64,000 nt of DNA from the human T2T-CHM13v2.0 reference genome, Homo sapiens, in the NCBI RefSeq assembly GCF_009914755.1, contig NC_060926.1, one strand, 5' to 3'. The notes under the pieces are model-generated. The model ran no database searches. It saw nothing but the letters and a program-made list of their open reading frames with translations, and was not told the DNA's origin. Position numbers and translations under genes: made by a program. Below, one piece after another: positions 38,517 to 42,919 of this stretch; positions within the stretch are counted from its first letter, which is position 1, and every line of letters begins with the position of its first letter.

Positions 38517-39187
38517 CTTTGTGGTTTTATCTACTTTTGGTCTTTGATGATGCTAATGTACAGATGGGTTTTTGGTGTGGATGTCCTTTCTGTTTGTTAG
38601 TTTTCCTTCTAACAGACATGACCCTCAGATGCAGGTCTGTTGGAGTTTGCTAGAGGTCCACCCCAGACCCTGTTTGCGTGGGTATCAGCAGCGGAGATTG
38701 CGGAACAGCGGATTTTTGTGAACCGTGAATGCTGCTGTCTGATCGTCCCTCTGGAAGTTTTGTCTCAGAGGAGTACCCGGCCGTGTGAGGTGTCAGTCTG
38801 CCCCTACTGGGGGGTGCCTCCCAGTTAGGCTGCTCGGTGGTCAGGGGTCAGGGACCCACTTGCGGAGGCAGTCTGCCCGTTCTCAGATCTCCAGCTGCGT
38901 GCTGGGAGAACCACTGCTCTCTTCAAAGCTGTCAGACAGGGACATTTAAGTCTGCAGAGGTTACTGCTGTCTTTTTGTTTGTCTGTGCCCTGCCCCCAGA
39001 GGTGGAGCCTACAGAGGCAGGTAGGCCTCCTTGAGCTGTGGTGGGCTCCACCCGGTTCCAGCTTCCCGCCTGCTTTGTTTACCTAAGCAAGCCTGGGCAA
39101 TGGCGGGTGCCCCTCCCCCAGCCTCGCTGCCGCCTTGCAGTTTGATCTCAGACTGCTGTGCTAGCAATCAGCGAGATTCACTGGGCG
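38517..39187 (-). promoter_or_regulatory. L1 5'UTR lacking roughly the first 360 nt; retains the antisense promoter region, which now fires on the + strand
   Basis: Recognisable CpG-richer L1 5'UTR ending at ...cagcgagattcactgggcg; the ORF0 start codon is at 39100. Confidence 0.8.
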
Positions 39188-39567
39188 ACTACTGGGTACA
39201 TAACAAAATGAAAGCAGAAATAAAGATATTCTTTGAAACCAACGAGAACAAAGACACAACATACCAGAATCTCTGGGACACATTCAAAGCAGTGTGTAGA
39301 GGGAAATTTATACCACTAAATGCCCACAAGAGAAAGCAGGAAAGATCCAAAATTGACACCCTAACATCACAATTAAAAGAACTAGAAAAGCAAGAGCAAA
39401 CACATTCAAAAGCTAGCAGAAGGCAAGAAATAACTAAAATCAGAGCAGAACTGAAGGAAATAGAGACACAAAAAACCCTTCAAAAAATTAATGAATCCAG
39501 GAGCTGGTTTTTTGAAAGGATCAACAAAATTGATAGACCGCTAGCAAGACTAATAAAGAAGAAATGA
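39100..39567 (+). CDS. Chimeric ORF0(1-29)::ORF2p(259-384), 155 aa; expression unknown
   Basis: [29 protein letters not shown] (L1 ORF0 N-terminus) runs in frame into [13 protein letters not shown]...[10 protein letters not shown]; the junction codon GAC is at 39187. Confidence 0.55.
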
Positions 39568-42230
39568 GAGAAGAATCAAATAGACGCAATAAAAAATGAT
39601 AAAGGGGATATCACCACCAATCCCACAGAAATACAAACTACCATCAGAGAATACTACAAACACCTCTACGCAAATAAACTAGAAAATCTAGAAGAAATGG
39701 ATAAATTCCTCGACACATACACCCTCCCAAGACTAAACCAGGAAGAAGTTGAATCTCTGAATAGACCAATAACAGGTTCTGAAATTGTGGCAATAATCAA
39801 TAGCTTACCAACCAAAAAGAGTCCAGGACCAGATGGATTCACAGCCGAATTCTACCAGAGGTACAAGGAGGAACTGGTACCATTCCTTCTGAAACTATTC
39901 CAATCAATAGAAAAAGAAGGAATCCTCCCTAACTCATTTTATGAGGCCAGCATCATCCTGATACCAAAGCCGGGCAGAGACACAACCAAAATAGAGAATT
40001 TTAGACCAATATCCCTGATGAACATTGATGCAAAAATCCTCAATAAAATACTGGCAAACCGAATCCAGCAGCACATCAAAAAGCTTATCCACCATGATCA
40101 AGTGGGCTTCACCCCTGGGATGCAAGGCTGGTTCAATATATGCAAATCAATAAATATAATCCAGCATATAAACAGAACCAAAGACAAAAACCACATGATT
40201 ATTTCAATAGATGCAGAAAAGGCCTTTGACAAAATTCAACAACACTTCATGCTAAAAACTCTCAATAAATTAGGTATTGATGGGACGTATCTCAAAATGA
40301 TAAGAACTATCTATAACAAACCCACAGCCAATATCATACTGAATGGGCAAAAACTGGAAGCATTCCCTTTGAAAACTGGCACAAGACAGGGATGCCCTCT
40401 CTCACCACTCCTATTCAACATAGTGATGGAACTTCTGGCCAGGGCAATTAGGCAGGAGAAGGAAATAAAGGGTATTCAATTAGGAAAAGAGGAAGTCAAA
40501 TTGTCCCTGTTTGCAGATGACATGATTGTATGTCTAGAAAACCCCATTGTCTCAGCCCAAAATCTCCTTAAGCTGATAAGCAACTTCAGCAAAGTCTCAG
40601 GGTACAAAATCAATGTACAAAAATCACAAGCATTCTTATATACCAGTAACAAAGCGCCAAATCATGAGTGAACTCCCATTCACAATTGCTTCAAAGAGAA
40701 TAAAATACCTTGGAATCCAACTTATAAGGGACATGAAGGACCTCTTCAAGGAGAACTACAAACCACTGCTCAATGAAATAAAAGAGGATACAAACAAATG
40801 GAAGAACATCCCATGCTCATGGGTAGGAAGAATCAATATCGTGAAAATGGCCATACTGCCCAAGGTAATTTATAGATTCAATGCCATCCCCATCAAGCTA
40901 CCAATGACTTTCTTCACAGAATTGGAAAAAACTACTTTAAATTTCATATGGAACCAAAAAAGAGCCCGCACCACCAAGTCAATCCTAAGCCAAAAGAACA
41001 AAGCCAGAGGCATCATGCTACCTGACTTCAAACTATACTACAAGGCTACAATAACCAAAACAGCATGGTGCTGGTACCAAAACAGAGATATAGATCAATG
41101 GAACAGAACAGAGCCCTCAGAAATAACACCACATATCTACAACTATCTGATCTTTGACAAACCTGACAAAAACAAGCAATGGGGAAAGGATTCCCTATTT
41201 AATAAATGGTGCTGGGAAAACTGGCTAGCCATATGTAGAAAGCTGAAACTGCATCCCTTCCTTACACCTTATACAACAATTAATTCAAGATGGATTAAAG
41301 ACTTAAACGTTAGACCTAAAACCATAAAAACCCTAGAAGAAAACCTAGGCAATACCATTCAGGACATAGGCATGGGCAAGGACTTCATGTCTAAAACACC
41401 AAAAGCAATGGCAACAAAAGCCAAAATTGACAAATGGGATCTAATTAAACTAAAGAGCTTCTGCACAGCAAAAGAAACCACCATCAGCGTGAACAGGCAA
41501 CCTACAAAATGGGAGAAAATTTTTGCAACCTACTCATCTGACACAGGGCTAATATCCAGAATCTACAATGAACTCAAACAAATTTACAAGAAAAAAACAA
41601 ACAACCCCATCAACAAGTGGGCGAAGGATATGAACAGACACTTCTCAAAAGAAGACATTTATGCAGCCCAAAAACACATGAAAAATGCTCACCATCACTG
41701 GCCATCAGAGAAATGCAAATCAAAACACAATGAGATACCATCTCACACCAGTTAGAATGACAATCATTAAAAAGTCAGGAAACAATAGGTGTTGGAGAGG
41801 ATGTGGAGAAATAGGAACACCTTTACACTGTTGGTGGGACTGTAAACTAGTTCAACCATTGTGGAAGTCAGTGTGGCGATTCCTCAGGGATCTAGAACTA
41901 GAAATACCATTTGGCCCAACCATCCCATTACGGCGTATATACCCAAAGGACTATAAATCATGCTGCTATAAAGACACATGCACACGTATGTTTATTGCGG
42001 CACTATTCACAATAGCAAAGACTGGGAACCAAACCAAATGTCCAACAATGATAGAAAGGATTAAGAAAATGTGGCACATATACACCATGGAATACTATGC
42101 AGCCATAAAAAATGATGAGTTCATGTCCTTTGTAGGGAAATGGACGAAATTGGAAATCATCATTCTCAGTAAACTATCGCAAGAATAAAAAACCGAACAC
42201 CGCATATTCTCACTCATAGGTGGGAATTGA
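39187..42230 (+). pseudogene. L1 ORF2 codons 259 to end (RT and C-terminal region), disrupted
   Basis: Stop at 39565-39567, open RT stretch 39697 to about 40650 with [10 protein letters not shown] and LFADD, frameshifts near 40650, 41685 and 41722, stop at 42186-42188. Confidence 0.93.
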
Positions 42231-42919
42231 ACAATGAGAACACATGGACACAGGAAGGGGAACATCACACTCTGGGGACTATTGTGGGGTGGGGGGAGTG
42301 GGGGAGGGATAGCTTTAGGAGATATACCTAATGCTAAATGATGAATTAATGGGTGCAGAACACCAGCATGGCACATGTATACATATGTAACTAACCTGCA
42401 CATTGTGCACATGTACCCTAAAACTTAAAGTATAATAATAATAAAATAAAAAGAAATAAGGATCCCAAGACATACTCAGTGGAGAATGGGATGAAGGTAG
42501 GAGGAATTTCAAGCTCACAAGGAAATAAGTACATAAAAGTTGTTATACAGTCAGTTTTTTCTGAGCCATTCTTAGCAGATTATTTTGTGGTATTTAAATA
42601 TTTTTACAGACAAATAATTGGACTATATTCTCCTATCTGTTTCAGTAAAGTTTTAGGATAGATACAAAGAAAACTACAAAAGTTATCTACTTTACAGTAT
42701 CCTGCCTTATGGAAGCATACTTCTGCCCTGAGTGTACAACATGTTGTAATAAAATAACACTTATGTTCTACATAATCATCTATTCATGAGCTTATTTCCC
42801 CTCTAGGTTGAGAGGTTTTTGATAACTGTATATTATGCATTTTCTATAGCCTGCATGTATAACATTGTAGTTAATGAATTAACACATTCGTTAATATAAT
42901 TGACATAACATGAAAACTG

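What the first reader, a model, noticed from the sequence alone, without database searches (positions are those of the whole stretch)
38950..42451. Inversion rewires the L1 antisense promoter and ORF0 in frame onto the RT half of ORF2
Seen: the ATG at 39100 opens [29 protein letters not shown], which continues without frameshift at codon 39187 into ORF2p D259 ([12 protein letters not shown]...), giving a 155-aa chimera that stops at TGA 39565 where L1 normally has AGA (KKKREK). The same frame reopens and continues through the RT LFADD motif, and the L1 3'UTR and A-tail lie downstream on the same strand. Known: primate L1 5'UTRs carry an antisense promoter and ORF0 that normally read away from the element; the ORF0 splice donors lie beyond codon 29 and are lost here. 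Inference: the inversion assembled a self-contained unit (antisense promoter, ORF0 as a directly scanned first ORF, EN-less ORF2p, poly-A signal). At insertion it could have encoded a roughly 1046-aa endonuclease-free RT fusion without needing ORF1-coupled reinitiation. If such junctions recur among 5'-inverted L1s, they would be an overlooked route to EN-independent RT expression.
Basis: partly seen in the sequence, partly recalled or inferred. Interest (0 to 1): 0.85.

Follow-up and report, generated by a model that had tools for sequence, protein, structure and literature searches.

The report
Inverted L1 fuses ORF0 to ORF2
This is an old, decayed L1 retrotransposon copy whose front half was flipped during insertion, so the small antisense gene ORF0 happens to read in frame into the reverse-transcriptase half of ORF2; it looks like an ordinary by-product of a known insertion mechanism, not a working gene.

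Summary
Window 36664-42451 is a single L1 insertion between 16-bp target-site duplications. Its 5' part is inverted: ORF2 codons 1-258, ORF1, and the 5'UTR from about nt 365. The inner junction at 39186/39187 joins ORF0 codon 29 in frame to ORF2p D259. The TGA at 39565 aligns to R385, where 31 of 31 related copies have AGA.

The structure meets every twin-priming feature I tested. The two arms abut at N258|D259 with no loss, microhomology is 2 nt and 1 nt, and both arms show similar private divergence (1.5% and 2.0%). The element carries the 129-bp ZNF93 segment, so it is L1PA3-like or older.

All are private to this copy, so a 1046-codon chimeric ORF at insertion is plausible.

Nothing shows it was ever expressed:
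- An in-frame junction is a 1-in-3 outcome.
- The published primary antisense start site (about nt 400) lies downstream of the ORF0 ATG (nt 452).
- No second copy of the junction was found in the genome.
- No gene is annotated here.

I could not run the genome-wide survey of similar junctions. Interest is low to moderate.

The parts
36648..36663 (+). Left target-site duplication AGAAATAAGGATCCCA. Its last two bases (CA, 36662-36663) could equally be L1 sequence, giving 2-nt microhomology at the 5' junction.
   Evidence: Identical 16-mer at 42452-42467.
36664..37436 (-). Inverted arm: ORF2 codons 1-258 (endonuclease domain). Still open. It reads through into the flank as a 323-codon ORF (36465-37436).
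   Evidence: phmmer aligns residues 1-258 to ORF2p 1-258 of 8uw3_A, and identity stops after N258.
37437..37499 (-). 63-nt spacer between ORF1 and ORF2.
   Evidence: Coordinates. The 63-bp length is stated in PMC5860796 (passage read).
37500..38516 (-). Inverted arm: ORF1, 338 codons plus stop. One nonsense codon at codon 49 (TGA, 38370-38372); otherwise open.
   Evidence: at that codon 22 of 32 relatives have CGA, 7 TGA, 2 CAA and 1 CCA.
38517..39187 (-). Inverted arm: 5'UTR from about L1 nt 365 to its 3' end. The first ~364 nt of the element, which hold the sense promoter core, are absent.
   Evidence: The arm start lies 350-355 nt after the nt-13 motif in most relatives.
38645..38769 (-). 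Extra ~125-129-bp segment of older L1PA 5'UTRs, the ZNF93 target. Present here and in 20 relatives; absent from 12 younger-type relatives.
   Evidence: gap at arm positions 419-543 against L011-L022. (colinear with L023-L042). PMC5860796 passages.
38950..39099 (+). Antisense-promoter region upstream of ORF0 (about L1 nt 602-453). It holds a RUNX-type core TGTGGT at 39037 and the site of the published ASP-forward primer at 38952-38971. There is no ATG between 38730 and 39099.
   Evidence: Four private substitutions (39022, 39054, 39059, 39069).
39100..39186 (+). ORF0 codons 1-29. ATG at L1 nt 452-450, with G at -3 and G at +4. Codon 28 is changed from V to L by a private CG>AC dinucleotide change at 39181-39182.
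   Evidence: PMC10619931 passage (A451G = ORF0 M1T).
39186..39187 (+). Inversion junction. 5'UTR homology ends at 39187 and ORF2 homology begins at 39186/39187, giving 1-nt microhomology (G).
   Evidence: query 1-238. (ORF2 matches begin at query 35-37).
39187..42230 (+). Direct arm: ORF2 codons 259-1275 (tower, RT, wrist, C-terminal domain). Now in four frame segments.
   Evidence: alignments to ORF2p 259-748, 749-1095 and 1107-1261.
39565..39567 (+). Nonsense codon TGA at ORF2 codon 385. It ends the present 155-codon chimeric ORF.
   Evidence: 31 of 31 relatives AGA.
40650..40655 (+). Site of a private 8-bp deletion (ORF2 codons ~748-751), which shifts the frame.
   Evidence: 28-31 of 31 relatives carry the eight bases. 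Frame change.
41680..41725 (+). Two private 1-bp deletions (near 41680 and 41725, ORF2 codons ~1095-1107), two further frameshifts.
   Evidence: 31 of 31 relatives carry each base..
42186..42188 (+). Second nonsense codon TAA at ORF2 codon 1262.
   Evidence: 29 of 31 relatives CAA..
42231..42451 (+). L1 3'UTR with AATAAA at 42440 and 42445 and a short degenerate A-rich tail.
42452..42467 (+). Right target-site duplication.

Best explanation
Window 36664-42451 is one L1PA3-type (129-bp-bearing) LINE-1 insertion made by twin priming.

Mechanism (inferred from the anatomy):
- The poly(A) end of the L1 RNA primed first-strand cDNA at the bottom-strand nick.
- The top-strand 3' end (...GGATCCCA) annealed by 2 nt inside ORF2 at codon 258/259 and primed a second cDNA. 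That cDNA ran back through ORF1 into the 5'UTR and stopped at about nt 365.
- The two cDNA ends were joined with 1 nt of microhomology.

This join placed the antisense strand of the 5'UTR (antisense promoter plus ORF0 codons 1-29) directly upstream of, and by a 1-in-3 chance in frame with, ORF2 codon 259.

The copy then decayed neutrally. About 1.8% of its sites carry private substitutions. It has two nonsense codons and three frameshifting deletions in the ORF2 arm, and one nonsense codon in ORF1. Today it holds only a 155-codon ORF without an RT domain.

Shown: the anatomy, the frame and the lesions. Inferred: the twin-priming steps, the age (roughly 10-18 Myr, using substitution rates I recalled), and the absence of function.
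For: - One 16-bp duplication flanks the whole composite.
- The inverted arm has no poly(A) of its own and ends at ORF2p N258. The direct arm starts at D259. On full-length relatives the two arms abut within 0-1 nt.
- Microhomology is 2 nt at the 5' junction and 1 nt at the inversion junction. This fits twin priming as summarised by Kojima 2010 (PMC2912911, passages): TSD peak at 14-16 bp, and 5'-inverted copies were 639 of 2068 lineage-specific L1s.
- The arms are equally diverged. Pairwise identity to the 20 relatives carrying the 129-bp segment is 94.5-96.2% (inverted) and 93.2-96.0% (direct; for L040 the best alignment piece covers only part of the arm); the 12 younger-type relatives fall within these ranges. 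Private substitutions are 38 of 2524 and 65 of 3265.
- All five ORF2 lesions are private.
- The junction is unique: of 40 matches scored out of 630 candidates, only this locus spans it.
- No gene is annotated in the window (hub note).
Against: - No expression, methylation or orthologue data could be consulted, so present-day or past transcription from the antisense promoter is not excluded.
- The promoter-proximal sequence is fairly well kept. It has 7 CpGs in 38950-39187, against 3-9 in 32 relatives. The RUNX-type core and the ATG context are intact.
- The ORF0 ATG and ORF2 M266 are the only ATGs on the + strand between 38730 and 39215, and both are in the ORF2 frame. A transcript starting on either side of the ORF0 ATG would therefore be read into ORF2.
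Confidence: 0.85

Rival explanations
1. One reading: at insertion the locus was a self-contained gene. The antisense promoter transcribed ORF0(1-29)::ORF2p(259-1275) through to the L1 poly(A) signal. This produced an endonuclease-free RT without ORF1-coupled reinitiation, for some time before the frame broke.
For: - The frame is right, and all ORF2 lesions are private to this copy.
- The ORF0 ATG has G at -3 and +4 and no upstream ATG for 370 nt.
- ORF2p 238-1061 alone is a highly active RT, and EN and CTD may not modulate RT activity (PMC10830420, passages).
- Antisense transcripts that include the region upstream of ORF0 are detected by RT-PCR with a primer whose site is intact at 38952-38971 (PMC7746726 passages).
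Against: - No expression evidence of any kind.
- The published primary antisense start (about nt 400) lies downstream of the ORF0 ATG (PMC4908685).
- The junction removes residues 254-258 of the tower baseplate (PMC10830420 gives the baseplate as 254-300).
- There are 14 AATAAA and 4 ATTAAA on the + strand between 39100 and 42470, the first at 39219. This favours premature polyadenylation (inference).
- The ZNF93 target is present, so repression is expected.
- No daughter copies carry the junction.
- The frame was not preserved.
Confidence: 0.08
2. The locus is still a weak antisense-promoter-driven transcription unit today. It gives a + strand non-coding RNA or a short peptide: either the 155-codon ORF from 39100, or 119 codons from M266 at 39208. 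It has no RT function.
For: - L1PA2-8 antisense promoters are active at many loci (PMC4908685 passages: 988 chimeric transcripts).
- The promoter region is 97% identical to 39 other copies over 236-238 nt and keeps 7 CpGs.
Against: - No lncRNA or gene model covers the window in RefSeq (hub note).
- The nearest annotated lncRNA ends about 36 kb upstream.
- ZNF93-type repression and CpG methylation are expected for such copies (inference).
Confidence: 0.15
3. The arrangement is not twin priming. Either two independent L1 insertions lie head to head, or a later genomic inversion flipped the 5' part of a normal insertion.
For: None beyond the bare fact of opposite orientations.
Against: - A single TSD pair encloses both arms.
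- The inverted arm lacks a poly(A) tail and its own TSD.
- The arms are complementary to the nucleotide at codon 258/259.
- The arms are equally diverged.
Confidence: 0.02

Closest known systems
Twin-priming 5'-inverted L1 insertions (Ostertag and Kazazian 2001, recalled and not held; Kojima 2010, PMC2912911, passages read)
   Same: Single TSD of 16 bp. Inverted 5' arm without poly(A). Arms meeting at nearly the same L1 coordinate. Microhomology at the 5' junction and at the inversion junction.
   Different: The inverted arm is unusually long (2.5 kb) and reaches the 5'UTR. It therefore carries the antisense promoter and the ORF0 start. How rare that is was not measured here.
ORF0 fusion proteins made by splicing from ORF0 donors into downstream host exons (Denli 2015, recalled and not held; summarised in PMC4908685, PMC4859970 and PMC13517631, passages read)
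   Same: The N-terminal part of ORF0 is joined in frame to a downstream coding sequence on an antisense-promoter-side transcript.
   Different: Here the join is at DNA level, made by the insertion itself. The partner is L1's own ORF2, both donor-like sites are lost, and no transcript or peptide is known.
L1 antisense-promoter chimeric transcripts (Speek 2001, recalled and not held; Criscione 2016, PMC4908685, passages read)
   Same: The same promoter region of an L1PA2-8-type 5'UTR faces non-5'UTR sequence.
   Different: Downstream is the sense strand of the same element rather than host sequence. Only about 35 nt of native sequence remain downstream of the published primary start (about nt 400).
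Endonuclease-independent L1 retrotransposition (Morrish 2002, recalled; Sen 2007, PMC1920257, search listing only) and the recombinant ORF2p core 238-1061 (PMC10830420, passages read)
   Same: An ORF2p lacking EN can still reverse-transcribe. The hypothetical product would begin 21 residues inside the recombinant core.
   Different: Those are engineered or trans-acting intact proteins. This locus has a broken frame and no ORF1 on the same transcript.
Truncated ORF2 products from retrotransposition-incompetent L1 loci (Kines 2014, PMC4176336, search listing and start of abstract only)
   Same: Defective L1 loci can retain partial ORF2 reading frames. Here the minus-strand arm keeps an open EN-only ORF of 258 L1 codons.
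   Different: No promoter for that arm remains, because the first ~364 nt of the 5'UTR are missing. Expression was not assessed.

Membership tests
Twin-priming 5'-inverted L1 insertion | One target-site duplication encloses both arms | tested here: met
   16-bp AGAAATAAGGATCCCA at 36648-36663 and 42452-42467.
Twin-priming 5'-inverted L1 insertion | 3' arm in sense orientation ending in a poly(A) signal and tail at the TSD; inverted arm has no tail and starts at an internal L1 position next to the other TSD | tested here: met
   The inverted arm begins at ORF2 codon 258.
Twin-priming 5'-inverted L1 insertion | The two arms meet at nearly the same L1 coordinate (small overlap or deletion) | tested here: met
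   N258 | D259. On relatives the arms abut with 0-1 nt overlap.
Twin-priming 5'-inverted L1 insertion | Microhomology at the 5' junction and the inversion junction | tested here: met
   CA (2 nt) at 36662-36663. G (1 nt) at 39187.
Twin-priming 5'-inverted L1 insertion | Both arms derive from one RNA (same subfamily, same age) | tested here: met
   Private substitutions are 1.5% and 2.0%. Pairwise identities are similar.
L1 ORF0 (primate antisense ORF) | ATG on the antisense strand of the 5'UTR at about nt 452 with a strong initiation context | tested here: met
   PMC10619931 passage (A451G = M1T).
L1 ORF0 (primate antisense ORF) | Complete ORF of about 70-71 codons | tested here: not met
   Only codons 1-29 remain in the window. 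9 of 9 relatives have 71 codons.
L1 ORF0 (primate antisense ORF) | Two internal splice donors | tested here: not met
   Donor-like sites at ORF0 nt 107 and 192 in 9 of 9 relatives lie beyond the junction. The published coordinates were not seen.
L1 ORF0 (primate antisense ORF) | Transcription from the antisense promoter | not testable with these tools
   No RNA, CAGE or methylation data are available.
L1PA3-type subfamily (older, ZNF93-sensitive lineage) | 129-bp 5'UTR segment present | tested here: met
   Window ~38645-38769. Absent from 12 relatives and present in 20. PMC5860796 passages.
L1PA3-type subfamily (older, ZNF93-sensitive lineage) | Diagnostic positions against curated subfamily consensus sequences | not tested
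   No Dfam or RepBase library is on hand. L1PA4 is not excluded.
Functional endonuclease-free RT gene | Uninterrupted reading frame through the RT domain | tested here: not met
   TGA at codon 385, an 8-bp deletion, two 1-bp deletions and TAA at codon 1262.
Functional endonuclease-free RT gene | RT catalytic motif retained | tested here: met
   LFADDMIV aligned to ORF2p 699-706 region. It lies downstream of the first stop.

The most novel reading that the evidence does not exclude
Twin-primed L1 insertions whose inner junction falls inside ORF0 create, at birth, an ORF1-independent gene driven by the antisense promoter for an endonuclease-free ORF2p RT. This locus would be a fossil of one that was briefly expressed in the germline or early embryo. 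In this locus the ORF0 ATG and ORF2 M266 are the first two + strand ATGs and both are in the ORF2 frame. Initiation on either side of the ORF0 ATG would therefore have given an RT-containing product.
Probability: 0.07. Interest if true: 0.55.

Novelty: new member of a known kind. Interest (0 to 1): 0.2.

Why it matters
If such junctions were expressed, they would be a source of RT activity that escapes two normal constraints on L1: dependence on ORF1/ORF2 bicistronic translation, and coupling to the endonuclease. Young polymorphic or somatic (tumour) twin-primed insertions of this kind could then matter for cytosolic cDNA and inflammation.

For this particular locus the evidence points to an inert relic. 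Its practical value is as a clean, nucleotide-resolved example of twin priming with a 2.5-kb inverted arm, and as a template for a genome-wide query.

Tried and rejected
The genome gives no file, and only 40 candidates are scored per search. The one-third test could therefore not be run.
- Daughter copies of the chimera: a 71-nt junction probe found only this locus among 40 matches scored out of 630 candidates.
- The one hit that covered only query 1-236 was fetched. It is a normal L1 with an intact 71-codon ORF0.
- Papers not held: Denli 2015, Speek 2001, Matlik 2006, Macia 2011, and Ostertag and Kazazian 2001. Their content is recalled or taken from later papers.
- Literature search for a prior description. 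'ORF0' + 'twin priming' gave 12 papers (listing only, mostly reviews). 'inverted L1' + 'antisense promoter' + 'ORF2' gave 1 paper. 'twin priming' + 'antisense promoter' gave 22 papers (listing). The passages read in PMC2837659 consider cryptic antisense promoters only as a rejected explanation for 5' poly(T) L1s. I saw no description of an ORF0-ORF2 DNA-level fusion in these searches.
- Rejected origins: two independent insertions, or a later inversion (see rivals).
- Alternative parse of the junction, with the 5'UTR ending at GATTC and 8 nt of filler. Rejected because 6 of those 8 bases match the 5'UTR, and BLAST extends the 5'UTR match to 39187.
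Full report
**What is in the sequence.** The stretch 36664-42451 is one LINE-1 element lying between two copies of the 16-mer AGAAATAAGGATCCCA (36648-36663 and 42452-42467).

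- The right-hand 3.27 kb (39187-42451) is in sense orientation on the + strand. It holds ORF2 from codon 259 to the natural stop at 42228-42230, the 3'UTR, AATAAA at 42440 and 42445, and a short A-rich tail.
- The left-hand 2.52 kb (36664-39187) is the same element on the minus strand:
  - ORF2 codons 1-258 (37436 down to 36664).
  - The 63-nt inter-ORF spacer.
  - ORF1, 338 codons, from 38516 down to 37500. It is open except for one TGA at codon 49.
  - 671 nt of 5'UTR (38517-39187).
- phmmer against PDB chains aligns the minus-strand ORF to ORF2p residues 1-258 of 8uw3_A, and similarity ends after N258. It aligns the + strand frame starting at 39187 to residues 259-748 without a gap.

- The ATG at 39100 opens [29 protein letters not shown] and runs straight into [13 protein letters not shown]....
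- The first 29 codons are ORF0. In 9 of 9 related copies taken from the same genome, the homologous ATG opens a 71-codon ORF starting [36 protein letters not shown].... That length matches Criscione 2016 (PMC4908685, passages read).
- The 155-codon ORF ends at TGA 39565-39567. This aligns to R385 in KKKREK, and 31 of 31 aligned relatives have AGA there.
- The frame reopens and passes LFADDMIV.
- Donor-like GT sites in ORF0 lie at ORF0 nt 107 and nt 192 (codons 36 and 64) in 9 of 9 relatives, beyond the junction at nt 87. None scoring 6 or more of 9 remains in the window.
- Reviews state that ORF0 has two donors (PMC4859970 and PMC13517631, passages). Denli 2015 itself is not held, so I could not check its coordinates.

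The ORF2 arm is broken four more times:

- an 8-bp deletion near 40652 (codons ~748-751);
- 1-bp deletions near 41680 and near 41725 (codons ~1095-1107);
- TAA at 42186 (codon 1262).

All are private to this copy: each deleted base is present in 28-31 of 31 relatives, and 29 of 31 relatives have CAA at codon 1262.

**Coordinates on L1.**

- A motif that starts at L1 nt 13 lies 350-355 nt upstream of the arm start in most of the 32 relatives. The nt-13 position follows from the '7-99' primer printed in PMC5860796. The junction is therefore at about nt 364-366, and the ORF0 ATG, 87 nt further, is at about nt 452-450.
- This agrees with Garza 2023 (PMC10619931, passage read), where A451G is the M1T change of ORF0.
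- The first ~364 nt of the element, which hold the sense promoter core, are absent.
- The element carries an extra ~125-129 bp at window ~38645-38769. Twelve younger-type relatives lack it and twenty relatives have it.
- By position (about L1PA3 nt 783-907) this is the 129-bp ZNF93-binding segment. It is present in L1PA3/L1PA4 and lost in L1PA2/L1PA1 (PMC5860796, passages read). The copy is L1PA3-like or somewhat older. No curated subfamily library was available to decide further.

**Origin.** Every twin-priming feature I could test is met:

- one TSD pair of typical length;
- no poly(A) on the inverted arm;
- arms that meet at N258|D259 with 0-1 nt overlap on full-length relatives;
- 2 nt of microhomology (CA) between the top-strand target end and L1 at the 5' junction;
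- 1 nt (G at 39187) at the inversion junction, since 5'UTR matches end at 39187 and ORF2 matches begin at 39186/39187.

Kojima 2010 (PMC2912911, passages) reports the same features. In that study 5'-inverted copies were 639 of 2068 human- and chimpanzee-specific L1 insertions.

The two arms are equally old. Private substitutions are 38 of 2524 (1.5%) and 65 of 3265 (2.0%). With substitution rates I recalled, this suggests roughly 10-18 Myr. That figure is an inference.

Two independent insertions, or a later inversion, do not fit these facts.

**How the hypothetical unit would work.**

- On the + strand the only ATGs between 38730 and 39215 are the ORF0 ATG (39100; G at -3 and +4) and ORF2 M266 (39208; A at -3). 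Both are in the ORF2 frame.
- Criscione 2016 places the primary antisense start at about nt 400, just downstream of a YY1 site at nt 448-453 that overlaps the ORF0 ATG. In the window that start would be near 39152, after the ORF0 ATG and only about 35 nt before the junction.
- Honda 2020 (PMC7746726, passages) detects ORF0 transcripts with a forward primer whose site is intact at 38952-38971. Some antisense transcripts therefore begin further upstream.
- Hence 'ORF0 as the first scanned ORF' holds only for a subset of starts. Starts downstream of it would still lead into ORF2, at M266.
[quoted passage not shown] The junction removes residues 254-258 of the tower baseplate (254-300).
- A 1046-codon ORF0::ORF2p(259-1275) protein with RT activity at the time of insertion is therefore conceivable, but it is wholly inferred.

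**Against function.**

- An in-frame join is a 1-in-3 outcome.
- The frame has since been broken five times.
- The junction is found once in the genome: 40 matches scored of 630 candidates, and only this locus spans it. There is thus no sign of retrotransposed daughters.
- The + strand carries 14 AATAAA and 4 ATTAAA between 39100 and 42470, the first at 39219.
- The ZNF93 target is present.
- No gene is annotated in the window (hub note).
- The present ORF encodes ORF0(1-29) plus ORF2p 259-384. That is the baseplate, tower helices and tower lock, with no RT domain.

**For possible residual promoter activity.** The 238 nt upstream of the junction are 97% identical to 39 other copies. They keep 7 CpGs, against 3-9 in 32 relatives, and a TGTGGT core at 39037. 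They have four private substitutions, at 39022, 39054, 39059 and 39069.

**Novelty and limits.**

- In the searches I ran (listings; passages of PMC2837659) I saw no description of a DNA-level ORF0-ORF2 fusion made by twin priming.
- Still, the thing itself is a further example of a known insertion type. The functional idea is untested.
- Expression, methylation and orthologue data are outside the tools.

**Verdict.** Observation confirmed. Interpretation partly supported: the structure and the frame hold, the function does not. Most likely an inert twin-priming relic (0.85). Interest 0.2.

Noticed in passing
window 36465-37436 (minus strand): The inverted arm keeps an uninterrupted ORF for the whole ORF2 endonuclease domain (codons 1-258). 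It reads on for 65 codons into the flank, giving 323 codons in all. Its own promoter core is gone, because the first ~364 nt of the 5'UTR are missing.
   Followed up: partly
window 39181-39182: A private adjacent double change (CG in most relatives, AC here on the + strand) lies 5-6 nt from the inversion junction. It creates a second ACTGGG three bases before the ACTGGG of ORF2 codons 260-262. It may be a scar of junction repair or of template switching. Tally: 22 of the 29 relatives that have bases at this site carry the unmutated CG.
   Followed up: partly
window 39056-39184 and 38621-38719: NCBI's soft-masking leaves these two stretches of the L1 5'UTR unmasked (129 and 99 nt). The first holds the ORF0 start. 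Yet 39 other genomic loci match 38950-39187 at 97%, so it is plainly repeat sequence.
   Followed up: partly
window 38370-38372 (minus strand): The ORF1 nonsense codon at codon 49 is TGA at a CpG site. 7 of 32 relatives carry the same TGA independently or by descent, and 22 have CGA. It is a recurrent CpG-decay stop.
   Followed up: partly
window 36269-36471: A masked repeat fragment lies just left of the insertion. It was not examined. It may be an older L1 3' piece, judging only from reading the sequence.
   Followed up: no
window 59544-60545: RefSeq lists two adjacent enhancer elements about 17 kb downstream of the L1 (hub note). Any relation to the L1 was not examined.
   Followed up: no
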